NCBI RefSeq assembly: GCF_030684315.1
Contig: NC_081384.1
Coordinates: forward strand, 26,822,818 to 26,886,817
Reading direction: 5' to 3'
DNA length: 64,000 nucleotides
Source of the DNA: Stegostoma tigrinum
Lineage: Eukaryota
Shown here in pieces: positions 5,756-51,530 of this stretch; the first letter of the stretch is position 1, and the number at the start of each line of letters is the position of its first letter. The position numbers and the translations under genes are program-made. The notes beneath the pieces were generated by a model, which was not told the DNA's origin, ran no database searches, and saw only the letters and a program-made list of their open reading frames with translations.

Positions 5756-6234
5756 AAGAGCTTAGATGATTGACCTCTAACACGTGCAACTATATTCCTT
5801 CCTGATCAGATAGCAGATAGCAGAATTTTCCCGATGTGTATTGATTTTAATTTGGTTAAGGCTTCTTCACACCACAGTTGATCAAATATTACTTTAATGT
5901 CATGTATAGTCAAGCTTACTTATCCCTGTAAGGCAACTTTTTTTATACATATTTGGACAAATGCTCTAAAGATGTTTAGAGTAGAGTGTTCCTGAAGGAG
6001 CCTAGGCTTAGCATTAGTGAGCAGATTATTGGTTATGTATCATGAAAGCACACTTTTGAAAACTCTTATCCATTACACACTTATGAATTAGAGCCAAGAA
6101 TAAACCACTCACTCCTTTGAGACCCACTCTGCCATTCAACAAGATTACGACTGATATATTGCTCCACATTCTCTGCAAACTACATTTAACATTTGTTGAT
6201 CACTGAAAGGAAAACATACAGAAAAGTTGATCCA

Positions 6235-6440
6235 GAGATAGCAGGAACTGCAGATGCTGGAGAATCTGAGATAACAAGGTGTAGAGCTGGATGAACACAG
6301 TTGGCCAAGCAGCAAAAGAGGAGCAGGAAGGCTGGCGTTTCGGGCCTAAGCCCTTCTTCAGAAATCCGAAACATCAGCTTTCCTGCTCCTCTGATGCTGC
6401 TTGGCCTGCTGTGTTTATCCAGCTCTACACCTTGTTATAT
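6235..6440. mobile_element. Fold-back PLE 3'-end insertion with 16-bp TSD
   Basis: Inverted arms GATAACAAGGTGTAGAGCTGGATGAACACAG...GTTTCGG / CCGAAAC...CTGTGTTTATCCAGCTCTACACCTTGTTAT. TSD CAGAAAAGTTGAYCCA at 6219-6234 and 6441-6456. Confidence 0.9.
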
Positions 6441-7009
6441 CAGAAAAGTTGACCCACCTTTTCTTTTCTGAAACAGTGAGCATAATAGATCATGTATAAC
6501 TTGGATAAAGCATTTCATTTCCTTCAAACATTTATTGGGCTTTGAAGGTCCAAACAAAGGCAAAAAAGTTCAAACAATAGGCTCTAAATAGAGGCAATTC
6601 TTGCCTCTGAACCTCAGCAGAATGTTAATTGCTAATTTATTTTAGAGATACACATGCTAAGGTTTATGGATACGTCAAGCTGTCTTTTGAATGCTATTAT
6701 TGCACGCTGTAGCAAGTATGCATTACCATTTTCATTGTTGAACTAAAAGAACTAACTGATCCGGGGGAAGAAATTAATTCATATGGCAGAGCTGCATAGC
6801 ATTAGTATGCTTCCCTACAATGCAAAGTGGGCTGCTGCCTGCACACTGCTTTCTGTTGTTTAACGGCATTGATAAAGAACTTGAAGTGACCCATGAAGCG
6901 AACAGCCTGTGACACTGCTTGATCCAGGCAACCAGCTACCTCCCAATATGACAAGAGATGCTATGAAATAGAATTCCCCTCCCTCTAAGTTGTAGATGAA
7001 TAAATATCT

Positions 7010-7265
7010 TGAGATGATAAGAACTGCAGATGCTGGAGTCAGAGATAACACAATGTGGAGCTGGAGGAACACAACAGGCCAGGCAGCATCAGAGGGGCGG
7101 GAAAGTTGAGATTTCGGGTCGGGACCCTTCTTTAGAAAAATCAGCATTCTTTTAAGATTAAATTTTTTTCTGAAGAAGGGTCCCAACCCGAAGCATCAAC
7201 TTACCAGCTCCTCTGATGCTGCCTGGCCTGCTGTGTTCCCCCAGCTTCACACTGTGTTATCTCTA
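7010..7265. mobile_element. Fold-back PLE 3'-end insertion with 11-bp TSD
   Basis: Inverted arms around a short AT-rich spacer. Plus-strand core CTGAAGAAGGGTCCCAACCCGAAGCATC. TSD AATAAATATCT at 6999-7009 and 7266-7276. Confidence 0.88.
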
Positions 7266-10200
7266 AATAAATATCTATATTGTCATCTGCCATTTTGCCA
7301 GTGCAACATTAGCTCCAGTTCAATTCTAGCCTCAGTAACACACATGATAGATACAATCCTGATAATTTTCAGGATTGCTGTTGTATACAGTTTTAATTTC
7401 AAACTTCATTCATGACTTCAGATAGTTTCCTACCTCCCATATTCCAAGCTGCAAATTTAGAGCTTGCATTCACATCTCACTGCAATGTTCTCATTTAATC
7501 CATGTAAACTCCAGACCTTAATGCAGTTTCTCTCTGTCTTTGGGAATGGATTCATTCTTTGACTGGTATACTTCTGCACTTGGGATTTGTTTTCTTTTAT
7601 ATTTTCTCATTTGATTCTGAAAAAAAATCTGCTTTTGATTCTCTATACAAAAGCTACCAATCTAACAAGTCTTTACCAATTACCTGAAAACTGTTGGCTT
7701 AATAATCAAAAGGCTTGCACTCAAACTGTCTACTTCCTAGCATGATTAACAAAGTGTTCATTTTTAAAACATTCAGTAGGCTTAAGAAGTGTTCTGGGCC
7801 CATTATTACAGCTGTATAGTGAAGGATGTGAATTGTAGATTGTCACATCGCACTCGCAGATATTGCAAATCTCAAAACTATGATGACAGGATGTTTTAAT
7901 TTTAAAAATCTCACTGCGATTGAAAATGTGCAGTGTTCTTGTTTTCCATGAAATTAGGATGCCAGGCCTGAGCCAGGATGGGACCGATATGCAACTGAAG
8001 AAAGTAAACTGTAGGAAATTCAGAAAGATCTGAGTAACTGAAACCACATTGTACAGGCAATGGAATCAAATGTGAGCTGAAATCAGCTTGGAGTTTGAAG
8101 GCTTGGTATATAAAACTAGTGCTGACCATGGTTGAATCTGTACATGAATCTAATGACTTGTTTATACCTGAAGAATAATTTTATACACTCTGTTCATTAT
8201 GTTCAGGAAGTTTGGTGATGGCCACTAACCTCAGTTTTCAGTCAGTTTATGAGCTGCTGTCTGGTGAAATTTCCATGAGAAGCTACATATTCATAAAGCC
8301 TACTCATAAATATAATAATAGTCTTGAACTTACATATTTTTAGTGTAATTTTTAAACTGTCATTAAGATGCATTTCAATTTTTTGCATCTAGGGTATATC
8401 ATAAAACGCGTAGATGCTAAAGAATGAATAATAGGTTTGGAATTTAATCATGGAGTTCATCTAAAACCACTCAAACCTAGAATAAATTACAGCTGTAGTA
8501 TTCATTCCAAATCATCTCATAATTCTATATCTCATTTGCACGCTACACTGCTGCTCATCACGGGTCTCCATCACAGCACACAAAAGAATAAGACAACTCA
8601 TGGTGGTGAAAGTGATCTGTCTGTGCTGAGATTATGGGGGAAAAAGAGACGCAGCAGCAAGATCACACTGAATGTTGCAGTCAGCTGAAATGAGAGACTC
8701 TGGATATAACCAGAACCCCTCTCGAGTCTGATCTTTGTGACAGAATAGCAGCAGAAAGAATGCTATGTGATTGGATATTCTGACACCAAATATTGATGGT
8801 TCACAGGATCCTGAAATACCTCAGCCTTAAGTACACAGATAGCAGTGAGCTCTCAGTCTTTTATCACCACAAACACTGCCGGTAGTTGAGATAATGCTAG
8901 AACTGCACAACAGCTCCTGCTGATAATAATGTTCTTGATCCTGCAAAGTATAAACTGTGTAGTAATTGTCCTGGCATACTTGAAATGGTGGCAGTAGCAG
9001 AAATGTTTGACATTGAGCTTATAATATGATCACATTGCCTGTGGCAAACTGATTTGCTACTTTATGTCTTTTCTAAATACTATTTTCTGTACCTTTGGCC
9101 TTCTCCCTCATTTTAGCTATTGCCACCATATTTCCTTCACTGCTGGACAAATGGAATAATCTTAGTTCCTATAATTTCCACCACTTATCATTGACACGAC
9201 TTTGTGGTTAACCGATAGGAGGAAGACTCTTCTCTGGCACCTTCTTCCCCGAAAGACTTCTTCCTCTTTATGTAATATTGAGCAAGTTAGTCCATGGGTT
9301 AGCCTCTCCTAAAGCCAAAGCACATTCAGTAATGGTTGGTGCATTAAAAATACAGACTGTGATTCCCTGGGTTTGAAGTTCAAGCCTTCACATATGAGCA
9401 CTATCAGGTTGTGACTCTCATTTTTCAAGGCCAAGATGAGTTCGCCATTTGGATTTAGCTTGTCCCTTTGAATGCTTAAATCCTTTGATGTGGGCACTTT
9501 GATATTTTTCTATTTACTTCAAACCTTGAAACAGAATTATCATTTTCTACAGTAGCTCTATTGTGCAATGCAATTTTTTTTCTTATTTTTCATTACATGG
9601 CGTGATGGTACCTTTCATGTGAGGAAATGAAAACTGAAGTGATTGAAATGTAGCAATACTTTGGTAAAATACTGGTGCTTCTGTTTCTGAGATATGTTTA
9701 GAGAACATCAAAAGACTAGGATCAAAGGAAAGGTGATGGGAGAAGGGTGGAATGGGGATTGAGGGAGGGTGACCAAAGCGGTTGCTACATTACTAACAAT
9801 TTCTACTGATCTCTCCCACCCACAATTCCAGAGATAGGCGTCGAGGAACTCACTAAAACAATTTCAAACGGCAAGGAAATTATTATAACTGCAGAGATAT
9901 GAAGAGGCAACCTCCCGAATTCTTTTTCGCTTCCTGTGCACTTTGCCTCCCCTCTTGGCACTAGATCAAATTGGCAAAACATCAAAGGACCACATCAGGA
10001 CAACAATGTTTGCTCATCCTTATTTTAAAAAATTAGTTAGGTTTGGTGGTGGGCATCTGTAGCAATGCTAAAACAGGAGTAGGTTTCTTATTACTTTCTT
10101 GAATACTTCAGGCTTGAAAACCAAAATGAATTTCAAAACAATAACAACTCTCATCTTTTAATGGTCACTCCCGTCAAGCATTGTAAATCGTAACTTTTCA

Positions 10201-11210: not shown

Positions 11211-11254
11211 TAATGTAATTACATTGTAGTCACTGATTTATGCAGTACTCTTGA

Positions 11255-14250: not shown

Positions 14251-16769
14251 TTATGCAGCTGACAATAGTAGGCTTTAAAATAATCTTTGATAATGGTGCT
14301 GACATTGGTTAGTGTTGTGTCGGCAATGTTCAGCCTCCATTTGCTTTGTTTGTGTTCCCTTCTGTTTTGTTGTAAATAAAAACTCAAATTTTGTCTTTGC
14401 ATTTGTCTGATTACTCATCTGCATGCGATGTTCCCCCATTGGACAATATCACTGGGGCAAAGTGGCAGTGACTTTCAGAAGGTGATTTGATGGGATGTAC
14501 CTACAGCCAAATGAAGTGTATGGCTGATGGCTAACCAGGAACTACGTTCGGAGAATGGGAATGTAAGCGCATGGGAGTTCCAGCTATGCTGGCTGAGTAC
14601 CATTGCCCGCCTGGGTTTGGGAATGCTCAGTTATGATGTTTCCAGAGAAGGACAACACAAGATTGCCAACGTGTGTCTGGGAGCATGAGGTTCTTTTAAA
14701 GCTGACAAGGATGCCAAGATGCCAGTCTTTTGGCCGATATCCACTGAGTGGCAAGGTCTTATTGGAACAGCATTTGGTAGGATAGGTAGAAATTGGGCAT
14801 GAGGGACACCATAGGGGCATGGTAAGCAATTAATAAGGTGGGTTTGGTAAGACACAGAGAGATAATTCATTAGGTCCTGCAGTGAATAACCCTCTAAAAT
14901 ATTCTGCGCATTTCAGACTTAACTGATGAAAATTTAAATTCAGCTCTTTGTTTCTCGAGTACATTATCTCCCATGCTGTCATTTTGTCAGCTTAATTTGG
15001 AGCAATATTCTGGCATTTTCACATTCGTAACTCAAAATAGCTTAATAAAGCCTGTCTCATCTGAATCTTCTTCTTTCCAGGCTGTGAAGTAATTGCTCCT
15101 TGAAGCTTGTTTCTTTGTGCCTTAGATTACCTTTGTATGAATTTATCAACATTTGAGGAAATAAAAGGTGTTTGGAAGGATTTGTGAATCTACCAGCCTT
15201 CCCTAATCTGGTCTTCGTTTAATTCCAGCCTACAATAATGTGGTTGGTTCTCCATTCCCCTTGGAAATGGCAATAGCAAACCATTCAGTTCAAGGACAAT
15301 TCAGCCAACAAATGGTGGTCTTGCTGTTGAAATGCAAATTTTTCCCATGGAAGAATAAATTTGGATACCAGATGAGCCCAGTACAATCTACAAAAGTATA
15401 ATCACAACTCATTACAATAAGGTTAGGATCAATCCATTGGAATCAAAATGAGTTTTCATTTGAAGAGGCAAGGTTTTGTCCAGCAATGATTCATACTAAT
15501 GTGATCCAAGGTGAGGGTTGTTTGAGATAGTTTGCTGCCACCGATCCTTCTTTGTCTCTACTTTGTCTCGGGCCTATCTAGTGTCTAGATGTAATACCAA
15601 TGCAGAGTCTTGACAGAAGAAGCTCTATTCTTAGGTTACAAGAAGGGTTATTGCATGATGGTAATAGATACAAATACATTTAGTCAGGCAAAATTATTAA
15701 GACTTCAGGGAGCTGGCATAGATACACCAGCTCCCACCGAAAGCTGGAGTAGAACTCTTTTCCCAATAGTCTGTGTGTGGAATTGGCTGAATGGGTGGAA
15801 CCAATAGGAACATAGAAACAGAATGAGGCCATTCAGCTCTTATAGCTTGCTCCACCATTCAATATCACCTACGTCAAAGTAATATTCTTCCACTGCCCCT
15901 CTATCAGTGGATGTTATTGTTATATAAACCTATCAACCTTTGTCTTAAACTCATTTAATGGCAAAGCTTTCATAGCCCTTTGGGACAGGAAATTATAGAG
16001 CGATTTCACTTTGATTTTAACCTTTTGAGAACCATTATCTTATACAATGTTTTCACAATTTGATAACAAAATCTCTTTCATGAGAACAACGGTTAAATCA
16101 GATGCAAACTGTGATTAAAAATATAGATCCACATGAAGATGAAGAATTCAACAAATATAAACATCTCTGACCCACAGTTACACAGTGACCTGCCCAAAGA
16201 TGGGAAAACACAGAATTGATTTCACGCCGAATGCAAGTTCAATTATGTTTCCGCTCATGTGACACGTCTAATGAGAAAAGCCAGCATGGATTCACTATCG
16301 ATAGACACTGGGCAGCAGACCCAGCTGATCAGTTTCCCGAGTCCAGCTCATCTGAATTCCGCTGAGTAGAAAAACAAACCTGGGGCAATGGCCTGACAAG
16401 AAAAAGAATCAAAATGATCTGCAATTTTAATTTTATTTCTAAAAGTCTGTATTGAACCACAGAAAGTTCCTTCTTGCTTGTCAAGCAAGGATGTCAGGAG
16501 GCATGAGAAACTGATATCAACCACAAATAAAGTGTCTGACCTGAATCATAGCTTCCAGATGAATGGTAATGCCTGAGAATGAGCCAGCCAGTGGCTGTGG
16601 TTCACTATCATACAAAGCTCTGGGAAGAGACAGGAGAAACAAACTAAAATCAGGACAAACTCATTGTAATGGCACATTCAAATTATTCCTACACATGTCT
16701 GAATAATGTACAGCACACATAACATGCATTAAGTTTCCTTTGTCTGAAAAACAACATTATTGGTTTATG

Positions 16770-16957
16770 AGTGATAATGGGAACTGCAGATCCTGGAGAA
16801 TTCAAGATAATAAAGTGTGAAGCTGGATGAACACAGCAGGCCAAGCAGCATCTCAGGAGCACAAAAGCTGACATTTCAGGCCGAGACCCTTCGTCAGATG
16901 ATGAAGGGTCTAGGCCAGAAATGTCAGCTTTTGTGCTCCTGAGATGCTGCTTGGCCT
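16770..16957. mobile_element. Fold-back PLE 3'-end insertion with 14-bp TSD
   Basis: Arms meet at ...GACCCTTCGTCAGA|TGATGAAGGGTCTAGGCCAGAAATGTCAGC. TSD ATTRTTGGTTTATG at 16756-16769 and 16958-16971. Confidence 0.9.
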
Positions 16958-17666
16958 ATTGTTGGTTTATGTAAGGTTTTATTTCTGGTGAAGTGATCAG
17001 CAATTTCAGACAAGATGGGTTTTGGTTGTGTTTGTGATGCCTTTTTGTGTTGCATATTTCAAAATGTTCATCTAAACATAATTTGAACTCACAGTCCTCC
17101 TGCAAGCTTTTTGGCAAAGTTTGTACCTCTAACAGTTGCAACATCTATACAAATTCACCAATTCATCAGGGTGCAACAAAGTGTGGAGGTCCATGAGGCA
17201 TACTGTACTGTTATGAAGTCGGGAGCCCCTATTTTAGGAATGAAAGAATTCCATTCAGACCAGTTAGAATCCGAGTTTAAGGTCATGAAGGTGAAATTGA
17301 ACCAGGCAGACAAGTAAATTGGATTGTAGTTCTTTGCTCAGCCATTATGAACTTCAATGATCTTTCTTTCTACTGACTGTGATGACTGGCAGAGTGTGCA
17401 AAAGCTGTGCCTGGTATGGTACAGAACTACGTGGACCCATAAAGTGACAAAGTTAATCCACCCAATGCTATTCGCTGATCGCAGTTTCAGTGGTGGTCAA
17501 GATGCTATGTTGTGATGATACATCACAGCCCTGAAATACTATGAGCATTTTTTAGCTTTTAATTTCAAAATGTGTTTTTAAAAGAGGAGTGCTACAGGCA
17601 ATAAAAAGACTGCAGGTGTAAATTCAATGCTGTCTGGCAAAATCCCGTGAGACCCATATAACATCA

Positions 17667-17838
17667 TGAACACAGCAGGCGAAGCAGCATCAGAGGAGCA
17701 GGAAAGCTGACATTTCAGGCCTAGACCCCTGAAACATCAGGCTTTCTGCTCCCCTGATGCTGCTTGGCCTGCTGTGCTCATCCAGCTCTACACCTTGTTA
17801 TCTCAGATTCTCCACCATCTGCAGTTCATACTATTTCT
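17667..17838. mobile_element. Fold-back PLE 3'-end insertion with perfect 14-bp TSD
   Basis: Arms meet at TTTCAGGCCTAGACCC|CTGAAACATCAG. TSD CCCATATAACATCA at 17653-17666 and 17839-17852. Confidence 0.9.
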
Positions 17839-19117
17839 CCCATATAACATCAGATTTGTAAAATGTCAGGGAAACTTCAAACAGAAAGAGAGAGGGAGGG
17901 GCAAAACAAGGAGATTTAGCAAGGAACAGATACTTTACCATTCTCAACTGAAAGCCAACTTTTGAAAACTGCTTTTTAATTCACCCTCTCAGGGACACAC
18001 AAGAAAAGGTGTAAAAACACAGCAAACAATCCTGTTCTGCGTACATAATGGAAAAAGGTACACTAGTCAATTGAGATTCATGTGAAGTTTGAATATTCAT
18101 GTTATGTGAAAGGCACAACCAAAGAACTATCATCCCTGCATTGCAGGTAAAATTAACCTCTCAATTTGAATGGTCAAAGCCAACTAAGCAGTGAGTCAGA
18201 AGGAGAAAACAAGACAAGAAGTATTATTTTATTCTGAGTGTTTTCAGCTAACCTCAGTGAAATGTAAACAGGACTAAAGTGTTTTAACTAGTCTAGAAAA
18301 AGCCAAGAACCCCAAATTGACCATTCAATTTTCAATGTTCTTTTTTCCACTCTTCACAAACAATCCCGAGACGCTGGTCCATCTTTAGTTCAACTTTAAT
18401 CTTTTTAAGACTAACTCCTAAATCCAAATCTTGCATATGTGAGTTGCATTATTCTTATTTTACACATTTACTAACCAATAAACTCACTCTTTCTTAACTC
18501 AAGAAAGTCTGGTTCTATTGAGTCTTTATAAAGCATAAGTTCAATTGGTCTGAGAGAAGGGCATCCGCAAAAGAGAGAGATTCTTTTCAGATTAACCTTG
18601 TCGCAATTAACCAAGGGGGCTGTAAATGGTAGATGGATAAAAAAGCAGAGTCAGTTCATCTCTCCCTTGCATGGACCTTATCAAAATGGTGTATTTGCCT
18701 CGAATTGTAGTAACTTGGGGAATCTCCCATGGTGTCAAATTGTAACAGCCACCTCAAAAACATGGCTGCATTGGTGGGAGTGAGTTCAACTGGGACTTGA
18801 AATAGCAAAAAATGAAAAGCACATTTAGAAGCAGGCTGCAAAATATCAGTTTGTGGGCTTTACTCAGGCAGAACAAAAAGACAGGTAGATAGGCCCTGAC
18901 AGGAGGTTGGGATTTGGGATATGAAGTGTATTAATTAATACTGTTTGCAGATTGAACTGCAGCCTGGTGGATTTACTTTAATAAATCCGGTATAGTGAAG
19001 ACCGGTATATTTCAGGAAGATGTTCATCCACACATACCCCCACATCCTCTCACAATTATAGACGCCCATCCCTCCTCGAGGTCTCACCCGATAGCAGTGG
19101 GAACTGCTTCTAAATGA

Positions 19118-19160: not shown

Positions 19161-19179
19161 CCAGAGTGGACATTGCCTT

Positions 19180-20659: not shown

Positions 20660-20858
20660 GAAAGCTGGATGCTCATTTAGAAACAAAAACAGAAATTGCA
20701 GGAAAAGCTCAGCAGGTCTGGCGGAATCTGTGGAGAGAAATCAGAGTTAACATTTCAGGTCCTGTGGCCCTTCCTCAGAGCCCTTCACAGATGCTGCCAG
20801 GTCTCTTGAGCTTTTCCAGCAATTTCTGTTTTTGTTTCTAAATGAGCATCCAGCTTTC
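20660..20858. mobile_element. Fold-back PLE insertion whose 19-bp flank is duplicated in inverted orientation
   Basis: GAAAGCTGGATGCTCATTT-AGAAACAAAAACAGAAATTG ... CAATTTCTGTTTTTGTTTCT-AAATGAGCATCCAGCTTTC. Confidence 0.85.
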
Positions 20859-20859
20859 A

Positions 20860-21307
20860 GTCAGAATTCTAGTGGAGTCCACAGACAGGCATTTGGCCAC
20901 TAAATCTTTTGGTCGGCACAACATTGTGGGCTGAAGGGCCTGTTCTGTGCTGTACTGTTCTATGTTCTAAATCAACCCTCACACAGTCTTCTAAAAGAGC
21001 TCAACAAAAACTGAAAGCACTGTGGCTGCTGGAAATCAGAAACAAAACAGAAGTTGCTGGAAAAGCTCAGCAGGTCTGGCAGAATCTGTGAAGAAAAATC
21101 AGAATTAACATTTCAGGTCCTGTGATCCTTCCTCAGAACTCTTCATAGATACTGCCAGGCCTTTTGAGCTTTTCTAGCAATTTCTGTTTTGTTTCTGATT
21201 TCCAGTGCCTGCAGTTCTTTCAGTTGTTATTCACCTCATTTAGAAGACTGTGTGAGGGTTGATTTAGTGGACAAATGCCTGTCTGTGGACTCCACTGGAA
21301 TTCTGAC
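20860..21307. repeat. About 450-bp palindrome: PLE fold-back core plus about 73 bp of inverted non-PLE flank
   Basis: GTCAGAATTCTAGTGGAGTCCACAGACAGGCATTTGGCCACTAAATC..AACCCTCACACAGTCTTCTAAA is mirrored by TTTAGAAGACTGTGTGAGGGTTGATTTAGTGGACAAATGCCTGTCTGTGGACTCCACTGGAATTCTGAC. Confidence 0.92.
20907..20966 (+). mobile_element. 60-bp, extremely 5'-truncated CR1 tail with 7-bp TSD
   Basis: GGTCGGCACAACATTGTGGGCTGAAGGGCCTGTTCTGTGCTGTACTGTTCTATGTT. TSD CTAAATC at 20900-20906 and 20967-20973. Confidence 0.9.
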
Positions 21308-21313: not shown

Positions 21314-21546
21314 TGAAATAACTCCATGAAATCCATATCTTGTTACCAAGTCACCATTTATTAACATGCACAGAGTGCATAACATTGACCAGCTAGCAAA
21401 ATGCTGCCTCCTAGAGTGCACAGAGCTTCTGACACTCCTGTTTATATCTGTCAGCCAGGACTCCCTGATTGGATCAAATTAACAGCCTCAATCAGGGAAC
21501 TCATATTCTATGGATCCACCTAGCTGACCTCATTCCAATCACTACT
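21314..21546 (-). mobile_element. Short (about 233 bp) solo-LTR-like element
   Basis: Reverse complement runs (T)GTAGTGATTG...CCAATCAGGGAG...GATATAAAC...AATAAA...GAGTTATTTCA (CCAAT, TATA, polyA signal, CA end). Related copies at 23697-24790 and 42066-42219. Confidence 0.7.
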
Positions 21547-23620: not shown

Positions 23621-23801
23621 CTTTACCTACAACAATATTCTAACCCATTTGTGAGTCTGTCCTGATGATTTTTAACATTAATGAAATGCTTAATATTGAA
23701 ATAACTCCATTGAGGCTGGCCACCAGTCACTCTTTATCTGTCTATGCATAGTACTTGACTTCCTCAGAGCCAGCTCTCAGAGGGAACAGAACCTCTGACA
23801 A

Positions 23802-24493
23802 GATAAAGTGTGGAGCTGGATGAACACAGCAGGCCAAGCAGCATCTCAGGAGCACAAAAGCTGACGTTTCGGGCCTAGACCCTTCATCAGAGAGGGGGAT
23901 GGGGAGAGGGTTCTGAAATAAATAGGGAGAGAGGGGGAGGCGGATCGAAGATGGAGAGAAAAGAAGATAGGTAGAGAGGAGAGTATAGGTGAGGAGGTAG
24001 GGAGGGGATAGGTCAGTCCAGGGAAGACGGACAGGTCAAGGAGGCGGGATGAGGTGGTAGGTAGGAAATGGAGGTGTGGCTTGAGGTGGGAGGAAAAGGA
24101 GGGGTGAGAGGCAGAACAGATTAGGGAAGCGGAGATAGGCTGGGCTGGTTTTGGGATGCAGTGGGGGGAGGGGACGAACTGGGCTGATTTTGGGAAGCGG
24201 TGGGGGAAGGGGAGATTTTGAAGCTGGTGAAGTCCACATTGATACCATTGGGCTGTAGGGTTCCCAAGCGGAATATGAGTTGCTGTTCCTGCAACCTTCG
24301 GGTGGCATCATTGTGGCACTGCAGGAGGCCCATGATGGACATGTCATCTGAGGAATGGGAGGGGGAGTTAAAATAGTTCGCGACTGGGAGGTGCAGTTGT
24401 TTATTGCGAACTGAGCGGAGGTGTTTTGCAAAGTGGTCCCCAAGCCTCCGCTTTGTTTCCCCAATGTAGAGGAAGCCACACCGGGTACAATGG
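23802..24493 (-). mobile_element. Young 5'-truncated Penelope-like element: GIY-YIG endonuclease C-terminus, 3' UTR and hammerhead
   Basis: Minus ORF 24121-24504 HCTRCGFLYIGETKRRLGDHFAKHLRSV...EQQLIFRLGTLQPNGINVDF. Perfect 11-bp TSD ACCTCTGACAA at 23791-23801 and 24494-24504. Confidence 0.95.
23863..23890 (-). ncRNA. Minimal type-I hammerhead ribozyme core, intact
   Basis: Minus strand CUGAUGA-A-GGG-UCUAGG-CCC-GAAACGUC: conserved core, short stem II, palindromic ACGU in place of stem III, GUC cleavage triplet. This matches the minimal hammerheads described in PLEs. Confidence 0.8.
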
Positions 24494-24582
24494 ACCTCTG
24501 ACAATCCTGTTTACATCTGTCAGCCAGGGCTCCCTCATTGGACCAGATTAACAGCCCCAATCAGGGAACTCATATTCTATGA

Positions 24583-24742
24583 CAACTGAAAGAACTGTGG
24601 GTGCTGTAAATCAGAGACAAATATAGAAATTGCTGGAAAGGCCTAGCAGGTCGGGCAGCATCTTTGGAGAGAAACAGAAGTTTTAACATTTTGGATTGAG
24701 TGACCCTTCCCATTGAGCTTTTCCAGCAATTTCTATTCGTGT
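24583..24742. mobile_element. Asymmetric fold-back PLE 3'-end insertion with perfect 14-bp TSD
   Basis: GACAAATATAGAAATTGCTGGAAAGGC / GCTTTTCCAGCAATTTCTATTCGTGTC. TSD CTCATATTCTATGA at 24569-24582 and 24743-24756. Confidence 0.88.
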
Positions 24743-25312
24743 CTCATATTCTATGAGGCCCACCTGGCTGACCTCAGAACAATCACTACAAACACTGTGT
24801 GTGGATTATGGTTAAATGCAATCATCATCTCAGAAAAATGTAACTTAGAACTGAGATAACGTGGTAGGCAGCAAAATATTATTCCACAAATATACTGTCT
24901 GGGCCAACAATTATGCTTTAAGAGAAATTAACATGAGATTGTTTCTTAATATATTAACAGCAGTTCCAATTTATAAGCGTGATCCTTTATAATCCAAAAT
25001 AACTTATTTTTTCTGTATTTCCCATTACAGAGGCCCATGTCAGATGAGTTAGCAATCTTCTGACTTGCTTATTGGACCTTGCAGACTGATAAGAAGCCAC
25101 AGACTCAAACCAGTGGCACGTTGCAAGCTCAGCAAACACCATGGGAACGTTAGTTGACGATAAATTGTTTATCCTTGAGACTGCATTCTCTCCCATCACC
25201 ATAGTCTGCACATCCACTGAGTAATGGAGGCACTTGGATAGTGTGCCTTAGAGAGCTAGCTAACATCAAGGAACTGTATCCATGGTGCAGTCACTACCAT
25301 CAAGAAAGGACG

Positions 25313-29224: not shown

Positions 29225-30010
29225 AACTGTTCATGGTACACATATTACTTGATGTTGGAGGAAACACAACACAGACTGGGTGGTCACTTTACAAAATACT
29301 TATCTTCAAAAATCACCCAAGACTGCCACTTTAACACATCATTATGTTCCCTGCCCAACATCTCTGCCTTAGGCTTGCTGCAGTGCTCTAGCGAAGCTCA
29401 GACCCAGCTGAAAAAAACAGCATTTCATTTTCTGCTTGGGGGCCCTACAGTTTTGAGGACTCAATATTGAGTTGACTAATTTTAGGACCTGAGTGCTTCT
29501 CCTATTTCCTAACCCCAACCCAATCACAATCGTGCTTGTCATCACATGGGCCACTACCACAAAAGCAATGCATTGTCAGGCATTAATGGTCCCCATTAAC
29601 AGCTACTGGTTCTCCCAGACTGACCTTGTCTGCCCAATAGCTGGTCTCTTTAAAAATCAAAAGAACTACAGATGCTGTAAATCAAGAACAAAAACAATTC
29701 CTGGAAAAGCTCAGCAGGTTTGGTAGCATCTATGAAGGAGAAAACAGAGTTAACATTTTGGGTCCAGTGATCCTTCCTCCGAACCCTTCTCTTTCTCTGG
29801 GCTCCAGCTCCATGTATCATTTACTCCTCCTCCCAACCCCAGCCTATATCCAGCATATGTATTCCCCTTTTCCTAGCTGCAACCAGTTCTGAGGAAGGGT
29901 CACTGGGCCTGATATGTTAACTCTACACAGATGCTGCCAGACCACTTGTGTTTCTCCAGCATTTTCTGTTTATGTTTCAGACTTCCAACATCTACAGTTC
30001 ATTGACTTTT
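29225..30010 (+). mobile_element. Old PLE 3' region (decayed GIY-YIG and tail) containing an antisense PLE end at about 29652-29785
   Basis: ETQHRLGGHFTKYL...ISALGLLQCSSEAQ. Tail core TTCTGAGGAAGGGTCACTGGGCCTGATATGTTAAC near 29890. Confidence 0.75.
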
Positions 30011-30054
30011 TTTGTTTGTGGTAAATGTTACACAAGCTAACATGTACAAACCTA

Positions 30055-30821
30055 GCGAGTTTTGAGAAGATTTGTAGCTCAGGTTGAGGTTCTGGATGTG
30101 AGTTGCTCGCTGAGCTGGAAGGTTAGTTTTCAGATGTTTCGTCACCATTCTAGATAACATCATCAGTGAGCCTCTGATGAAACGCTGGTGTTATGTCCCG
30201 CTTTCTATTTATCTGGTTAGGTTTCCTTGGGTTGGTGATGTCATTTCCTGTTCTTTTTCTCAGGGGATGGTAGATTGGCTCCAAATCAATGTGTTTGTTG
30301 ATGGAGTTCCATTTGGAATGCCAAACTTCTGGGAATTCTTGTGTGTGTCTCTGTTTGGCTTGTCCTAGGATGGATGTGCTGTCCCAATCAAAGTGGTGTC
30401 CTTCCTCATCTGTATGTAAGGATATGAGTGATAGGACATGATACGACATGACCCACTATCACTCGTATCCTTACATACAGATGAGAAAGGACACCACTTT
30501 GATTGGGACAACACATCCATCCTGGAACAAGCCAAACAGAGACACGCACGAGAATTCCGAGAAGCATGGCATTCCAACCGGAACTCCATCAACAAACACA
30601 TTGGCCCCCAATTAACCTACCATCCCCTGAGAAAAAGAACAGGAAATGACACCATCAACGCAGGAAATGACATCACCAACCCAAGGAAACCTAAACAAAT
30701 AAATAGAATGCAGGACATAACACCAGCGCTTCGTCGGAGGCTCACTGATGATGTTACCTAGAATGGTGACGAAATGTCTGAAAACTAACCTTCCAGCTCA
30801 GCGAGCAAACTCACATCCAGA
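30055..30821. mobile_element. Large fold-back PLE insertion (second family), about 770-bp palindrome with 13-bp TSD
   Basis: Both arms encode HHFDWDxTSILxQAKQRHxxEFxExWHSxxNSINKHI in opposite orientation; centre about 30445. TSD ATGTACMAACCTA at 30042-30054 and 30822-30834. Confidence 0.93.
30745..30778 (+). ncRNA. Hammerhead ribozyme core with one CpG mutation; mirror copy on the minus strand at about 30133-30166
   Basis: CUGAUGA-U-GUUACC-UAGAAU-GGUGAC-GAAAUGUC. The mirror arm reads GAAACAUC, so the ancestor was GAAACGUC. Confidence 0.75.
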
Positions 30822-32989
30822 ATGTACCAACCTATAAATTGCATCATCTTACAGCCTTCAACACTCAACATTGAGTTCAACAAATTCAAATCATAATCAT
30901 TGCCCCATTTTTTGAACAGCAGTTACTGTTAGTAATTCTGTTTTCATAATTTTCAGCTCTTTTATTTATTTTATTGCATCATTACAACATTGTGCCAACA
31001 TAATTTTTTGTCATTTAATCATTGCTGCCTACCACGCTGTCACAAACGTTTCCTTCTGTTCTTTCCACCTCTCCCTACTTTCTCTGCTTTTCTACTTAAA
31101 GCCTATTTCATCTCGATCTGTTTCACATTCTAATGAAAGACACTGACTCGCAACATTAATTGTTTTGGTCTCTCCTTAAATGCTGCTCAATCTGCTGAGG
31201 ACTTCCTGCATTTTCTGCTTTTATTTCAGATTTTCTGCAGAAATGCATTTTTGAATCTCAATTATTATTTGTTTTCTTGGAAGGACTTTATTTCCAGGCA
31301 AACTTTTGCTATGTTCCCTCCCGACAACCCAATACAAAATATTAAGGCCTTTGGGATATTGCACGGGATTTGACAAATGACAGAATGTTCACAACTTTCA
31401 GATGGTGGGAATTTAGCAGCCTACAAAATTTGAACATCTAACCTTCCTTTCAAAACGGTAGATACTGACGTAATTTTGCTTGATAGCAATGTGATCCAAT
31501 TATTGACAATACAGATCAGTGAACTTGGAGACAAAAACAGAAATTGCTGGCAAAACTCAGCAGGTCAGTCAGCGTCTGTGGAGGGAAAGCAGAGTTAATG
31601 TCCAGTGGCTCGACATTAGAATTAGTTAATTCAAAAGAGGTGAACTCAGAGATTTGTGACACCATTCAGAGTGGTCTACCTACTGCTGGAGTAATAAAGG
31701 GAATGGCCGACATTTCCCAGTCAAAAATGTCACTCGCAATGTCAGTAGCTGAAGTAATTCATGCAAGGGAACTTCAGAAAAGGATAAATACACAGCCAAA
31801 AGTACAAATTGTCATTAGCCTCATGAAAATGATGTCTTGTTGTTGGATGGAATCTTCTGGGCCAATGTGAAGCATTTCAAAAGGTGGGAGAGGCAACTTA
31901 ATTGAGTGGGATGCTAAAGTACAGATTCCCAGCATTTTGATTTGAAGCCTCAGAAACTTTCAGGTAGGTCTGCCCAGCACATGGTAACTGTTGAAGACGA
32001 TGATTGCTTTTATTAGTATGTCACAATTACTTATTGACAAATGAGCCAGCTGACGTTATCTTCACAGGAGCAAATCTCTGATGCAAAGGCAAAAAAAAAA
32101 GTTGTTAACCAACTTTTTGTACAATTAACATAGGTGACATGTTTTACTAGGTCGTGCTGATAGCAATTGGTCCTTCATAACCAAAGTTCTTCTTTGCTGA
32201 CACGGTTGAAGCGTAAGGGATTGAGTCTCCATGAGCAATTGATTATAGTCTGTATGATAAAATGAAGCACTCACTTCATCAAAAAGGCTAACAAGCTCTA
32301 GCCACTCATAATGCCAACAAGATCCTGTAAAGCTTTGAACTCTGACATGGAGGAAACATCCCAGATAACAATTTTAGTGGTGGTGATGGTGGGGATTGGC
32401 CTATGATAAGTCATACAGGAATCTTCATTAGCCCACGTATCAGAACCTTGCAGACACAGGGATGAAGCCATCATATATACTGTTGATTCCATGGTCACAG
32501 GCCAGGTCGCAGGGGATAATGAAGATGACCAAGAGTCAAAGTGAGCAACATACCACATGCTTAGAATGCACCATACACTTAAAGCTACAAATTCCTTGCA
32601 CAAGGCTGAATTTGGAAGAGGTCCTCCAAGATGGGCTTTACAGTATTGAGGTGGCTGCAAAGTAGACCTGTGCTCAAGTTTAGAAGCAGCCTAATAAAGG
32701 TTGATTAAAAGCCAGTTTGACTTGGGAAAATTCTCTATAGGAAACAAAACATCTCTTTCTTCTTTTTGTTCACACATCCCTACTTCAATGTAAATTGTGT
32801 GGCTAGCTAAAAGCAACAGTTGCACTGGTTTTATTGCAGCTAGGAAGGAGGAAGAGAGGATGAAAGAATGTTCAGTGCCAACAGCACCATTGACCTGAGG
32901 CTCAGGGACCTCTAAATTTGGAGCATCTAGCAGTGTCTAATGAGGGCAACCAATGTCTTTAGTGCCTTTGAACCATGAGCTGCAAGAGG

Positions 32990-36500: not shown

Positions 36501-36504
36501 CAAG

Positions 36505-42065: not shown

Positions 42066-42219
42066 TATAGTGATTGTAATGAGGTCAGCCAGGTGGACCT
42101 CATAGGCTATGAGTTCCCTGATTGGGGCTGTTAATCTGGCTGACAGTGTCATGTACAATGCTTGTATAAATAAAGGGTGACATGGTGATAGGCTACCAGC
42201 TTTCATGGAGTTATGTCCA
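42066..42219 (+). mobile_element. Internally deleted copy of the short solo-LTR-like element
   Basis: TAGTGATTGTAATGAGGTCAGCCAGGTGGACCTCATAG...GAGTTCCCTGATTGGGGCTGTTAATCTGG...AATAAAGGGTGAC...GGAGTTAT. Confidence 0.7.
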
Positions 42220-43412: not shown

Positions 43413-43824
43413 GACATAGGGAGTACACTCAAAGGGAAGAGTCTGAGAGGAAGGTTGAGAGAGAATCAATACTTTGTATTTGACTGTAGTAACATATATT
43501 GTGAGAATAGAGAGTAGGAGTTCTGTTGCCCTATTTACATCCAAATTAATCCATTAGCTGATTAGATCACCTAAGGATTACCAACTGGTTAACACTAAAA
43601 GATAAATGTAGTCAAAGGCTAAGGGCAGACCAGGTAACATATCCTGTGTGGTCACATCCATCACCTTCTATTTCCATTATTAACTTCCCTGCTTTTCAAT
43701 TCAATTCATTTTTAAATGTGCCTGCATACTTTTTTTTGGCTTTAACAACCTGTTTAGATATGACACAACACACCTCTGCAGGTATCACATCCTGAGGTGA
43801 GAACTGAACCTAGACTTTCTTGAT

Positions 43825-44263
43825 GGACTGGGGCAGACAAGGTTAAAAATCACGAGACACCAGGTTATGGTCCAACAGGTTTATTTGAAAGCACAAGCTT
43901 TTTGAGCCTCATTCTTTCTTCAGATGTTAGTGAGAAAGGTAGCATCAGACACAGAATTTAGTCACCTCTGGTATACTGATAAAGCCTTTAGTTATCATGG
44001 GACAGTGACTTGGTAGAAATTCTGGTTATTGCATATTAATCAATTGAAACTTGCATCTCCTTTCTAGCTGATTAAAGATTTAACATCCATCTTAGGTTTT
44101 TTCAATACATTTGCTCAGTTCTATGACTCTTTGATCTTTTACTTATAAGTTCTGTGTTTGATGCCATCTCTCTCACTAACACCTGAAGAAAGAATGAGAC
44201 TGTGATGGCCTATGTTTTCAAATAAACTTGTCGGATTATAACCTCGTGTTGTGTGATTTTTCA
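43825..44263. mobile_element. Fold-back insertion of a third PLE family, inside a SINE head, with 16-bp TSD
   Basis: AAAAATCACGAGACACCAGGTTATGGTCCAACAGGTTTATTTGAAA is mirrored by TTTCAAATAAACTTGTCGGATTATAACCTCGTGTTGTGTGATTTTT. TSD CCYAGACTTTYTTGAT at 43809-43824 and 44264-44279. Confidence 0.8.
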
Positions 44264-44669
44264 CCCAGACTTTTTTGATCAGAGGTAGGGACATGTCAGT
44301 GCATCTCAATGCCCTAAGCCCCAGTAACATGCTTGCTTTCGCTACAGCCTCATTAGCCATTGTAGCTACCTATTCTGTTTATAATATTTACATCCATAGG
44401 TTACCCTGCTTCTTTGGCCATTTAGGCACTTATTTTCCAAGGAGTATATAATCACCTTATCAAAACAAATTACTTCATACTTATCTGTATCAACATCCAT
44501 TTGTCAATTATTCACACTCTCCCTGTTTATTAGTTGCTACCTACATTGTGTTGTCTGCTTCCTCTGTATTATTTGTAATTCCCTGATAATTGTCTACCAA
44601 CTAATACTACTATATTCCCATTTGTATCATGGACTTTGATTTCATATAAAGATGAATGAAGATATTTTC

Positions 44670-47944: not shown

Positions 47945-49695
47945 GGACTGGGGTGGACAAAGTCACAAGTCACATGATACCAGGTTATGGTCCAACAGGT
48001 TTATTTGAAACCACAAACATTCAGAGGACAGCCCCTTCATCGAGAGGGAAGAGCACACAGATGCACATTTTATAGGCAGAGAGATCAAGGGCTTAGAAAT
48101 CAGGAGATGATACAACTAGTGTGAGTAGAGTATCGAATAAGAAGTCTCAGCTGGTGACCAAAAGTCGTAGACAGTGTGAGTAAAGTGTCAACAGCTGAGT
48201 AACAAGTGAAGGGATGACCTATAATCCAATTAAATGAGGCAGAGAGATAGTTACAAAAAAAATTAAAGATAACGTGTGTGCTAGAGATAAACTAAATGAC
48301 TGGAATAATATATGTGTAAGAGTCGCATGCCAAGTGGCTAACCAAAGTAATAAGTAATCCAAAACTGTGCAAAGTAACGAGAGTAGAGAGGTGTTAACAA
48401 GTTACCAAGATGATGGTGTCAAAACAGGACAGAACAGTGTGGTAGGGTCACATGTCACGTGACATGAACCCAAGATCACAGTTGAGGCCACCCTCGTGGG
48501 TACAAAACTTGGCTATCAGTTTCTGCTCAGTGATTCTGTGTTGTAATGTATCTTGAAGTTCACCTTGGAGGATGCTTACCTGCAGATTCAAGACTAAACG
48601 TCCTTGACCATAGAAGTGTTTCCTGACTGGAGAGGGAATATTCCTGTCTGGCGATTGTCGTGCAGTGCCCATTCATCCTTTGTCATAGCATCTGCACGGT
48701 CTCACTGACGTACTATGCCTCGGAGCATCCTTGCCTGCAGCCGATGAATTGTCAACATTGGCTGAGTCACATGAGCATTTGCCATATCCATGGTGGGTGG
48801 TGTTCCCACATGAGATGGTAGTGTCCAAGGCGATGATCTGACATGCTTTGCAGAGTTTGCCATGGCACGGTTTTGTGGTGTTGTAGCCAATGTTGTTGTG
48901 GATGCTGGGTAGTTTGCTGCAAACAATGATCTGTTTGAGGTTTGGCAATAGTTTGAAGGTGAGAAGTGGAAGAAAATGCTGTCAATGTGTCTGGTATAGC
49001 ATTGGTCGGAGGTCCTGTGCAGCAAAGATGTCTTGATAGAATGTGTGCATGAAAATGTTGGCATATTGGGGTATAGATTGCTCCCCATGGTTACAACTCA
49101 TGTCTGGACGAAGAACTGGTTGTCAACGATGAAGAAGTTGTGGCCGCGGATGAGTTGTAGGTTGACAGGTGTTGGTATTGAGTACTGTCGTAGCAGTGAT
49201 CGCATCGTGGGTGATGCTGGTATAGAGTGGTGAAACATCCATCATGATGAGGAATGTTCCTGATTTGACAGGTCTGTGAGTGTTGCGTTTCTGTAAGAAA
49301 TTTGTGGTGCCGCAACAGACGCTGGGAGTTCCCCGTAAAATGGGTTTCAAGCTGCTCTCAACATAGCTGGAGAGGTTCTCGCATAGGCTGATACAATGGA
49401 GTGACCAGGTATGTTAGCTTTGTGTATCTTTGGAAGGCAACAGAAGCCTCATACTCAAGAAGTACGCAGGATGAGAGTGCTTGGAAGATCAAAGGTCTTG
49501 ATCAGTCTGTTGAGTTGATGGGTGTGTTCTTTGGTCGGATTGGCAGGCAGTTGTCTGTAGTGTTCCTGGTTACTCTTTGCACTAATCTATTCTATTCTCC
49601 ATGATGATGGCTCCTGCTTTGTCCGCTGGGCTTGATGACAATGTTACAATCGGTCTTGAGGGCCTGCATAGCATTGCGTCGTGCTTGGGTGACAT
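47945..49695 (-). mobile_element. Long decayed Penelope-like element (RT, GIY-YIG, 3' end); same family as 43825-44263
   Basis: GTFLIMMDVSPLYTSI (RT motif A), CKACQII...SCDSANV and EQKLIAKFCTHEGGLNCDLGFMS. Many frameshifts. Confidence 0.9.
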
Positions 49696-51530
49696 TCTGC
49701 TGCTGTTCCTTTTATACCGTGACCTACAACTTTCCTCATTAGTCTGTTGTGAGGCAGCGTATTAAACATGTTCTGGAAATCCACATCAGCAATAATACCA
49801 TCATCGAGCATTTCTGTTATCTCTTCATAAAACTCCACCAGGTCAATTCAACACAATTTTCCCATTAGAAATCCATCCTCAAACGTCTTAGCCAACCTGC
49901 CCATTTTCCCTGTCTTGATTATTAATTCTGTCTTGAATCATTGTTCCTAGATACCTCTCCCCGATTGAAGTTGAACTGACTGCTTTATAATTATTGGGAT
50001 TATCCTTAGAGCCTCCTTGAAAATAGATGTGTTGTTTACAATGCTTCAGTCTTCTAACACGTTCCCTGTGTACAGTCAGGGCAGAAAGATAATGGCCAAT
50101 GCCCTCACAATTTCCACCCTTAATTCCTTCAAAACCCATGAATGCATCTCATCCATTTCAAGAGTCTTGTCAACTTTAAGCACCAACTGTCTATCCAAAC
50201 TTCTTCAAATAAAAACTGACAGAACTGTAGATTCTGTCAATCAGGAACAAAAACAGAAGTTGCTGGAAGAGCTTAGCAAGTCAGGCAGCATTGTGAAGAA
50301 AGAAAACAGAGGTAACGTTTCGGGTCTGAGTTCAGAGGTCTGAGGAAGGTCTGGACCGGAAACATTAACTCCAATTTTTTTTCTTCACAGATGCTGCCAG
50401 ACCTGCTGAGCTTTTCCACCAACTTCTGTTTTTGTTCTACGTTATTCATTTTGAATGCTTTAGTGACAGAGTTTCCTTTTCTACCAGCACGCCCTGGGCT
50501 CCATTCTCCTCATTTTCAAAGACAGATCCAAAATATTCTTTTAATATCTCTGCAACACATCCTGCTTCCATTTGTAAATCCCCCTTTGATTAAACCTCTT
50601 ACATGCCTCCTTTAAACACCCTTTTTACAATTTATGTGCTGATAGAAAACGTTTAGATTCTCTTTTATGTTAGTTGCTACATAATTCCTCTTGGATTCTC
50701 CAAATTGCTTTTTCACCTGCCCTTGAAACCTTCAGCATTTCTCTTTGCTCCCAATGGTATTTTTTTTCCTTGCACCTGTTATGAGCCCACTTTTACTTTC
50801 TAATGTTAATTGTTACCTCCTTTGTCATCCAGGGAGCTCTGGATTTGTTTGCCCTACCTTTCCCATTTGACGGAATCTACCTTGACTGTACATGAGCCAT
50901 CTGCTCTTTGAAGATGGCCCATTGCTCAGCTGCTGTTTTTTCCACCAAGCTTTTGTTCCAGTCAATCCTGCCAGTTCTGCTCTTACCCCACTGAAGACAG
51001 CCCTCTACCAAATGATTTTTCTCATTTTTGAATGTGAATGTTATTCCCCAATATTGCGCCTCAGACTTCGACAGTGTGACAGGAATGTGAGACGTGACAG
51101 GATGCTGGATCCCTGGAAGGATCGGTCTTTCCTTCACTGTACCCTGAGCCTTATGGTAAAATGTCCTTCAGGGAAGAAAATCTGCTATCTTCACCTAGTC
51201 TGGTTTATATGTGACTCCAGACCCACAGCAATGTGGTTGATTCTCACTTGCCCTCTTAAATGGCCTGGAAGGCCATTCCATTTAAAGACAGGCAATAATT
51301 GCTGGCCGGCCAGCAATGCCCACATTGCACAAGTGAATTACAAAAAAATCACTGCCTGCTAAATGTTTCCCTTCTGTCACTTTATCCAGTTGGCACACCT
51401 CATTGCCAAGTGGCAGGTCCAAAAATACATGCTGTCTTGTCAGGCTAGACACATACCGCTTTAGAAACTCTCCTGAACATAATCTGGCAAAGGTACACCT
51501 CCCTGCCCTTACTCTACCTCTGTCCTAGTC
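49696..51530 (-). mobile_element. Fragmented old CR1 ORF2 (endonuclease-RT) with several nested inserts
   Basis: DFQNMFNTLPHNRLM, GSKDNPNNYKAVSST and IDWNKSLVEKTAAEQWAIFKEQ. An endonuclease-like segment resumes at about 51350. Confidence 0.8.
50210..50438. mobile_element. Fold-back PLE 3'-end insertion inside a CR1
   Basis: GAACAAAAACAGAAGTTGCTGGAAGAGCT / AGCTTTTCCACCAACTTCTGTTTTTGTTC; centre GTTTCGGGTC...CTGAGGAAGGTCTGGACCGGAAAC. TSD not convincing. Confidence 0.85.

What the first reader, a model, noticed from the sequence alone, without database searches (positions are those of the whole stretch)
6219..50438. Population of hammerhead-bearing, fold-back mini-Penelope insertions with long TSDs
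Seen: about ten insertions (6235, 7010, 16770, 17667, 20660, 21000, 24583, 30055, 43825, 50210) consist of a PLE 3' end followed by its own reverse complement, with both 3' ends pointing outward. Usually one arm is complete and the other shortened. Seven have 11-16 bp TSDs around the whole palindrome, so each went in as one event. At least three distinct PLE families do this. Established: PLEs often form inverted pseudo-LTR arrangements and carry minimal hammerheads. Inference: these roughly 200-bp non-coding, MITE-looking hairpins are a high-frequency PLE retrotransposition product in which the RT template-switches or snaps back. They may instead be a non-autonomous ribozyme-carrying class moved in trans. 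If transcribed within introns, each would give 60-370 bp of dsRNA.
Basis: partly seen in the sequence, partly recalled or inferred. Interest (0 to 1): 0.8.

Follow-up and report, generated by a model that had tools for sequence, protein, structure and literature searches.

The report
Twin-primed head-to-head Penelope insertions
The small DNA hairpins are real, very common stumps of Penelope-like jumping genes, apparently built when both cut DNA strands at the landing site each prime a separate copy of the element's end and the two copies are joined back to back, which gives testable clues to how this poorly understood class of element integrates.

Summary
Observation confirmed: ten fold-back insertions of PLE ends; seven have 11-16 bp TSDs; one has empty paralogous sites. 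Two are 442 and 767 bp, and six of ten keep an intact hammerhead core. They are the short end of a continuum of head-to-head pairs (85 bp to 3.9 kb), with 8,218 exact junctions for one young subfamily alone. The hairpin does not propagate (38 junction types in 50 loci). Snap-back fails: exactly one arm carries the ~33-nt tail (49/50, 19/19, 8/8), yet the tail-less arm often reaches further 5' (5 of 8 long pairs), and some pairs join two subfamilies. Best model: both nicked target strands prime separate cDNAs, which are joined at their 3' ends. Short arms stop at a wall 4 nt before the hammerhead core, with an extra G there (52/71 versus 5/42 at the ribozyme cut site), read as a capped transcript start; a smaller pile-up sits at the predicted cut site. 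Inverted pLTR plus TSD is published; these rules were not found in my searches. Expression and the start site are untested. The scan noted similar elements before on two other genomes.

The parts
6219..6456 (.). Family A pair: tailed arm 6235-6364 (-) with intact hammerhead core, tail-less arm 6365-6440 (+) starting at +19; TSD 6219-6234 / 6441-6456
6999..7276 (.). Family A (older) pair: tailed arm from 7010 (-), about 20-nt untemplated spacer, tail-less arm to 7265 (+); TSD 6999-7009 / 7266-7276 (11 exact)
16756..16971 (.). Family A (young) pair: tailed arm 16770-16898 (-), short arm 16899-16957 (+, +2 to +60); TSD 16756-16769 / 16958-16971 (14 bp, 1 mismatch)
17653..17852 (.). Family A pair: tail-less arm 17667-17728 (-), tailed arm 17729-17838 (+); both start inside the hammerhead; TSD 17653-17666 / 17839-17852 (14 exact)
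20660..20858 (.). Family B pair 20679-20839, both arms tail-less, flanked by a 19-bp inverted copy of flank instead of a TSD; local duplicate of the 21000 pair
20860..21307 (.). Family B pair 20996-21239 (both arms tailed) inside an inverted duplication of about 68 bp of locally unique flank; the left flank copy is interrupted by a LINE-like 3' end at 20907-20969
23789..24504 (-). Single-arm, 5'-truncated family A copy 23802-24493 with the GIY-YIG end of the ORF, 3' UTR and tail-less end module; TSD 23789-23801 / 24492-24504. Links family A arms to a coding PLE
24569..24756 (.). Family B pair: tailed arm 24583-24712 (-), 30-nt arm 24713-24742 (+); TSD 24569-24582 / 24743-24756 (14 exact); empty paralogous sites at 21470-21550 and 42060-42140
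29652..30011 (.). Unlisted older family B head-to-head pair with a longer right arm; no TSD found
30042..30834 (.). Family C pair, 767 bp: tailed arm 30055-30434 (-), tail-less arm 30435-30821 (+), both with intact hammerhead core and ORF-end remnant; junction far from the hammerhead; TSD 30042-30054 / 30822-30834 (13 bp, 1 mismatch)
43812..44279 (.). Family D pair, 442 bp: short tailed arm 43825-43960 (-), longer tail-less arm ending 44266 (+); degenerate hammerhead; TSD 43812-43824 / 44267-44279 (13 bp, 1 mismatch)
50208..50438 (.). Family B pair: tailed arm (-) starting at +18, tail-less arm (+) with intact hammerhead core; no TSD found

Best explanation
These are ordinary-frequency integration products of endonuclease-bearing Penelope-like elements, made by double (twin) priming. 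The PLE protein cuts both strands about 14-16 bp apart (the TSD). Each 3' end primes its own cDNA on element RNA: one at the outer start site (arm with the ~33-nt tail), the other at the inner, AU-rich site (tail-less arm, usually with 1-4 nt of microhomology). The two cDNA 3' ends are then joined head to head, often by microhomology or a few added bases. When priming takes place in the 5' pLTR of the transcript, the RT runs off the capped RNA 5' end, 4 nt upstream of the hammerhead core, after 100-130 nt, which gives the ~200-bp palindromes; priming at the 3' pLTR gives long arms. A minority of templates were already cut by the hammerhead. Shown: single event, de novo junctions, one-tail rule, independence of arm lengths, the -4 wall, the extra G. 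Inferred: dimer and nick geometry, that -4 is a Pol II start and the G is the cap, that the +29 pile-up is ribozyme cleavage.
For: One tailed and one tail-less arm in 49 of 50 young short pairs, 19 of 19 TSD-flanked family A pairs in 400 kb of evenly spaced genome samples and 8 of 8 long pairs. Tail-less arm longer by 160-2,700 nt in 5 of 8 long pairs and further 5' in 19 of 50 short pairs. Arms differ at 2 or more of 6 subfamily columns in 7 of 47 pairs; L162 joins two common haplotypes. No arm of 100 passes -6 although the pattern allowed -18; 28 of 68 family A arms at risk stop in -7..+6 against 1 of 40 in the next 12 nt; family B 16 of 20. A full-length copy (L156) starts at the same edge. 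Untemplated base before -4 is G in 52 of 71 against 6 of 26 at +19, 5 of 42 at +29 and 7 of 23 at +43 (tests). In vitro a PLE protein nicks and extends both strands, uses two start sites that bound the tail, and is modelled as a dimer (PMC11167929). An extra G marks full-length L1 5' junctions (PMC11702581).
Against: No transcript start or cap was observed directly. Family B shows only a weak G excess (17 of 38, p 0.11) and has a possible splice acceptor at the same edge. Family C shows no pile-up at the hammerhead. Arms of one pair share a haplotype more often than random arms (33 of 47 against 650 of 2303), so two independent RNAs are not the rule; one RNA primed twice, time-linked subfamilies or later conversion could all do this. 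In vitro the two strands did not differ in start site, so the one-tail rule has no biochemical explanation yet. 19 of the 52 G cases can be explained by partner-arm microhomology (33 of 52 remain). Only 38 of 101 family A arms in the samples were in detectable TSD-flanked pairs, and single-arm insertions with TSD exist (23802). 20660 and 21000 break the one-tail rule and have inverted flanks.
Confidence: 0.66

Rival explanations
1. Snap-back or self-priming: one cDNA (or an antisense template, as proposed in PMC3846280) folds back and is copied to make the second arm.
For: Arms of a pair are more alike than random arms (89 mismatches in 3,314 sites against 7,846 in 162,347; 3 of 31 rare variants shared). 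The tail-less outer end is variable and has microhomology with the TSD in 29 of 38. 20660 and 21000 have inverted copies of flank, as read-through after a fold-back would give.
Against: The copied arm cannot hold sequence that the first arm lacks, yet each arm has something the other lacks in 5 of 8 long pairs (tail on one, 160-2,700 extra 5' nt on the other), in 19 of 50 short pairs and in window pairs 30055, 43825, 50210. Two-haplotype pairs exist.
Confidence: 0.1
2. The -4 wall is not a transcript start but a pause, splice junction or processing site at the 5' edge of hammerhead helix I; the G comes from terminal-transferase bias or an upstream exon.
For: In D. virilis the intron ends at the 5' end of helix I (PMC4209133). 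Family B has CAG just there. Helix I complementarity gives microhomology that favours such joins.
Against: About 60% of family A arms that reach the edge read through it into the 3' UTR (40 of 68). Family A has no AG acceptor there and no shared upstream sequence follows the G. G is not enriched at +19, +29 or +43.
Confidence: 0.15
3. A non-autonomous hairpin (MITE-like or retrozyme-like) family that is copied as a whole.
For: One junction form recurs at many unlinked loci among the best matches to 16770. 20660 and 21000 share a junction and arm-specific variants.
Against: That search selects for the junction, and the recurring junction sits on different subfamily backgrounds whose two arms co-vary. 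38 junction types in 50 loci; family B junctions nearly all different; 20660/21000 are neighbours with locally unique flank; TSDs are 14-16 bp, and sizes run on to 3.9 kb.
Confidence: 0.05
4. Two arms inserted separately, or chance inverted neighbours.
For: Copy number is very high (168,433 copies of one 15-mer).
Against: TSDs enclose the whole pair; empty paralogous sites for 24583 and for 9 of 61 tested loci; 25 close head-to-head pairs in 400 kb of samples, against 2 tail-to-tail neighbours (both cross-family) in samples plus window.
Confidence: 0.01

Closest known systems
Inverted-pLTR insertions of EN+ Penelope-like elements (Penelope/Poseidon, Neptune, Naiad; PMC3846280, PMC8557442, PMC2377424)
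   Same: Head-to-head inverted 5'-truncated copy, whole unit flanked by a TSD, 30-40 nt tail often at one end only, minimal type I hammerhead in the pLTR.
   Different: Here both arms are often only the end module; TSDs are 14-16 bp (8-10 bp in the rotifer paper); the tail is on exactly one arm; short arms end at a fixed edge with an extra G; the published proposal is self-priming on an antisense template, which these data contradict.
PAc (Poseidon of Anolis) in vitro reaction (PMC11167929)
   Same: Both strands nicked and extended, two internal RT start sites that bound the tail, uncleaved RNA as main template, modelled dimer.
   Different: No strand bias in start site was seen in vitro, no joined head-to-head product was reported in the part read, and no reads ended at the hammerhead cut site, whereas genomic copies here pile up there about fivefold.
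L1 twin priming (5' inversions; passages in PMC11702581; original model recalled)
   Same: Second nick primes a second cDNA; inversion junction resolved by end-joining; discrete TSD; extra G at capped 5' ends.
   Different: In L1 the inverted piece is a different, upstream part of the same RNA and a minority outcome; here both arms copy the same 3' module, so a true palindrome results, and two templates can be used.
Non-LTR (animal) retrozymes (bioRxiv 10.64898/2026.07.22.740005)
   Same: Short, non-coding, PLE-pLTR-derived, type I hammerhead.
   Different: Retrozymes are defined as direct tandem repeats with a hammerhead in each unit; these are inverted pairs, and their 5' ends lie mostly upstream of, not at, the cut site.
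MITEs
   Same: Short palindromic appearance with TSD.
   Different: Unequal arms, variable centre, 14-16 bp TSD, retroelement origin; resemblance only.

Membership tests
EN+ Penelope-like element insertion | End module linked to an ORF with RT and C-terminal GIY-YIG endonuclease | tested here: met
   Family A: RVT_1 (E 8e-6) and GIY-YIG (E 0.001) hits, both below Pfam cut-offs, in 817-869 aa frames ending before the module. Family B: tblastn to the family A ORF directly upstream (E 6e-24, 8e-35). C and D: motifs by inspection only.
EN+ Penelope-like element insertion | pLTR made of element 3' end plus ORF-proximal 5' part, with optional 30-40 nt tail | tested here: met
   Module plus tail runs into the ORF start (ATG at about +168); L156 has the module at both ends.
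EN+ Penelope-like element insertion | Minimal type I hammerhead in the pLTR | tested here: met
   CTGANGA-stem II-GAAA-short palindromic helix III-NUH on the sense strand; intact in 6 of 10 window insertions; Rfam negative; folding z-scores not significant; cleavage not testable.
Neptune clade | CX2-5CxxC motif in the RT-EN linker (PMC8557442) | tested here: met
   C-x3-C-x2-C before the endonuclease in the family A frame; no tree was built, so the clade name is provisional.
Non-LTR retrozyme | Direct tandem repeats with a hammerhead in each unit | tested here: not met
   The insertions are inverted pairs; TRF finds no such array in the window.
Propagating non-autonomous hairpin or MITE | Fixed internal structure shared by dispersed copies | tested here: not met
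   38 junction types in 50 loci.
Twin-priming product | Two cDNAs primed from opposite target strands, shown biochemically | not testable with these tools
   Only genomic signatures.
Capped Pol II start at -4 | Capped RNA 5' ends at that base | tested here: inconclusive
   Indirect: wall and extra G; no RNA reads were laid.

The most novel reading that the evidence does not exclude
Double priming by an asymmetric PLE dimer is the normal integration route: one subunit starts at the tail end, the other at the inner site, and they can hold different RNAs. The ~200-bp palindromes are fossil strong-stop products that map the capped start 4 nt before the hammerhead, and the smaller pile-up at +29 without a G is genomic evidence that a minimal PLE hammerhead cleaves in vivo. 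With an internal promoter each short arm could itself be a template, a SINE-like cycle in which the hairpin is rebuilt at every landing, leaving on the order of 10^5 hairpins in this genome.
Probability: 0.4. Interest if true: 0.78.

Novelty: new variant of a known kind. Interest (0 to 1): 0.57.

Why it matters
The origin of PLE inverted repeats and tails is named as an open problem (PMC8557442), and the one explicit proposal that I read is self-priming on an antisense template (PMC3846280). Thousands of young, precisely bounded copies give rules that any model must meet: one tail per pair, 14-16 bp stagger, independent arm lengths, occasional two-template pairs, a capped-looking 5' wall. All are testable in the existing in vitro system. 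In practice, the elements would be mis-annotated as MITEs, and an extrapolated 1-2 x 10^5 short inverted repeats are a large potential source of dsRNA and cruciform instability.

Tried and rejected
Rfam scan of the window: nothing at gathering score. Folding single hammerheads: no significant z-scores. Pfam on the window's own endonuclease fragment: no hit. Sequencing runs: no RNA holder listed, which says nothing about expression; no reads or contigs were laid, so start sites, dsRNA, editing and orthologous empty sites stay untested. No relatives of this genome are held. Cap-G test in family B: not significant. Microhomology at the tailed end: my reference differs at one tail base from many copies, so those numbers were not used. 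A DPE-like element at +28 from the proposed start: checked by eye against a recalled consensus, no match. The idea that the inverted flank of 21000 is a MITE end: the stretch matched only its own two places (that search can skip common words). Earlier notes near this window: none. PMC9004415 held nothing relevant.
Full report
Observation. Self-alignment shows local inverted repeats at all ten listed places and at 29650. In each, the left arm lies on the minus strand and the right arm on the plus strand of the element, so the 3' ends point outward. Direct repeats of 11-16 bp with at most one mismatch enclose seven of them; random position pairs reached 11 exact bases in 1 of 300 trials. The 24583 pair landed in a repeat whose two other copies in the window hold the 14-bp sequence once and no element; among 61 young loci from elsewhere with an exact TSD of 12 or more (of 79 examined), 9 had such an empty paralogue in the sequence I held. 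So the pairs are single events with true TSDs.

Identity. Four end modules share no significant similarity beyond a weak A-B match. Family A is the end of the coding fragment at 23802-24493; longer copies carry 817-869 aa frames with RVT_1 and GIY-YIG hits below Pfam's cut-offs and a C-x3-C-x2-C linker as described for Neptune elements (PMC8557442). Family B modules lie directly behind PLE ORF remnants. C and D were assigned by motifs read by eye; the label Poseidon-like for C rests on its ORF starting in hammerhead stem II as in PAc. Positions below count from the C of CTGANGA (+1). The module runs to about +93, the tail to about +128, and the ORF starts at about +168. The predicted ribozyme cut is between +28 and +29.

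Scale. An exact 30-letter junction pattern for one young family A subfamily has 8,218 matches (control 0) among 168,433 copies of the half pattern. Forty evenly spaced 10-kb samples held 25 close head-to-head pairs (A 20, B 4, C 1), the window 7 by the same rule, and 2 tail-to-tail neighbours were seen in all. That extrapolates to 1-2 x 10^5 in 3.2 Gb; the window is not special. TSD-flanked family A pairs in the samples run from 85 bp to 3.9 kb (19 pairs, 38 of 101 arms; control 1 of 210), so the mini forms are the short end of a continuum.

Does the hairpin propagate? No. The first 50 pattern matches on contig C1 show 38 different oriented junction middles, none more than three times. All 67 matches of a family B pattern modelled on the 21000 junction were listed and nearly all differ. 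The junction of 16770 recurs among its 30 best matches, but on several subfamily backgrounds, as expected of a hot spot found by a biased search.

Does one cDNA snap back? Not as a rule. Exactly one arm bears the tail in 49 of 50 short pairs, 19 of 19 sampled pairs and 8 of 8 long pairs (these 8 came from 12 loci that I picked for long frames or opposite-strand neighbours, so they are not a random set; 7 of the 8 show a TSD by inspection). A snap-back copy cannot contain what the first strand lacks, so the tailed arm would have to be the longer. It is the shorter in 5 of 8 long pairs, by 160-2,700 nt, and in 19 of 50 short pairs (23 longer, 8 equal; ambiguous bases credited to both arms). At six subfamily columns the arms agree in 33 of 47 pairs against 650 of 2303 cross pairs, but 7 differ at two or more columns; L162 joins two common haplotypes and in L156 the short arm differs from both ends of the long arm. 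Three of the seven are older copies where mutation may contribute, and later conversion cannot be excluded. The same logic applies to self-priming on an antisense template (PMC3846280).

Why are so many about 200 bp? Their 5' ends hit a wall. None of 100 arms passes -6 although the pattern allowed -18, and 18 of 50 tailed arms end at -4. In the samples plus window, 28 of 68 family A arms at risk stop within -7..+6, against 8 of 76 in the 12 nt before and 1 of 40 in the 12 nt after; family B 16 of 20. The other 40 read through, so it is no absolute block. A full-length copy, L156, begins at the same edge. Where AT-rich foreign sequence precedes -4, the next base is G 52, C (templated) 29, T 12, A 7 in the first 100 of 1,760 matches (counted by eye). 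Among untemplated bases G is 52 of 71, against 6 of 26 at +19, 5 of 42 at +29 and 7 of 23 at +43; leaving out the 19 cases that partner-arm microhomology could explain, 33 of 52 against 18 of 91 pooled (p 2e-7). An extra G is the mark of a reverse-transcribed cap in full-length L1 insertions (PMC11702581). Family B gives 17 of 38, not significant, and family C shows no wall. The bases around -4 resemble initiator motifs in A and B (recalled consensus, not tested). D. virilis Penelope has an internal promoter with its start in the pLTR (PMC2377424). Such 5' ends occur at about 0.52 per Mb at -4, 0.015 at +19 (undercounted by CpG decay), 0.12-0.13 at +29 and 0.023 at +43. The fivefold excess at +29, without G, fits templates cut by the hammerhead, though a palindromic AGCT there may inflate joins.

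Mechanism. Exact TSDs are 14-16 bp in 32 of 38. With both cDNAs primed outward-in, the geometry needs a staggered cut leaving 3' ends on both strands, each extended on RNA. The tail-less end has 1 or more nt of microhomology with the TSD in 29 of 38, as for a second primer annealing inside the RNA. PAc protein nicks and extends both strands, starts at two sites bounding the tail, prefers uncleaved RNA and is modelled as a dimer (PMC11167929). I therefore infer twin priming, joining of the two cDNA 3' ends, and run-off at the capped 5' end when priming is in the 5' pLTR (confidence 0.66). Unexplained: why the tail goes to exactly one arm even in two-haplotype pairs; the excess concordance of arms; single-arm insertions with TSD such as 23802; and the inverted flanks of 20660/21000, which are more alike (96-100%) than the arms (about 86%) and may be later template switches at the hairpin.

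What is known. Inverted pLTR, tail and TSD are published features of PLEs. Eight paper searches found no description of module-only palindromes at this scale, of a strict one-tail rule, of twin priming for PLEs or of a cap signature; the library lacks most subscription journals, and Repbase, Dfam and the 2005-2006 PLE reviews could not be read. Read: PMC11167929 parts 1-2 of 4 (its supplementary figures on genomic ends were not read and may bear on the tail rule); PMC3846280 passages and Discussion; PMC8557442 passages and one section; bioRxiv 10.64898/2026.07.22.740005 part 1 of 5 and passages; passages of PMC2377424, PMC11702581, PMC6155905, PMC4209133, PMC9004415. The original L1 twin-priming model is recalled. 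Two earlier notes of this scan on other genomes describe similar elements, the 5' clustering and de novo mirror halves; I had formed this reading before seeing them, and they are not independent support.

Verdict. Real, abundant, a new variant of a known PLE insertion structure. The value lies in the mechanistic rules. Interest 0.57.

Noticed in passing
L136, L140, L147/L148, L138, L144, L150, L155 (G000 C1): Internally deleted short family A units (ORF start joined to 3' UTR) in partial tandem; L136 and L140 share one deletion junction, and in L147/L148 both inverted arms carry the same deletion: a possible non-autonomous, retrozyme-like lineage.
   Followed up: partly
window 20660-21307: Two near-duplicate family B hairpins, each extended by an inverted copy of local flank that is more alike than the arms are; suggests secondary template switching at hairpins.
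   Followed up: partly
window 51053-51138 and 51740-51825: 86-bp inverted repeats, 94% alike, about 600 bp apart, not PLE modules; possible DNA transposon ends.
   Followed up: no
window 2729-3188: Old inverted pair of LINE-like 3' ends (70% alike); no TSD found.
   Followed up: no
G000:C10 18.27-20.39 Mb: The same rare junction recurs about every 95 kb at 20 or more places: a very long-period tandem array.
   Followed up: no
L124 (G000:C624): Open frame of over 1,000 codons with repeated endonuclease-end segments and an inverted copy upstream.
   Followed up: no
window 47944-49300, 52584-53166 and 55500-56300 (minus strand): Decayed PLE coding remnants of family D and of a further family.
   Followed up: partly
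window 313-1571: Broken LINE reverse transcriptase (RVT_1, E 1e-35).
   Followed up: no
family B junctions: Helix I complementarity makes a cDNA ending at -4 complementary to one ending at the cut site, and many junctions use exactly that 4-nt overlap.
   Followed up: partly
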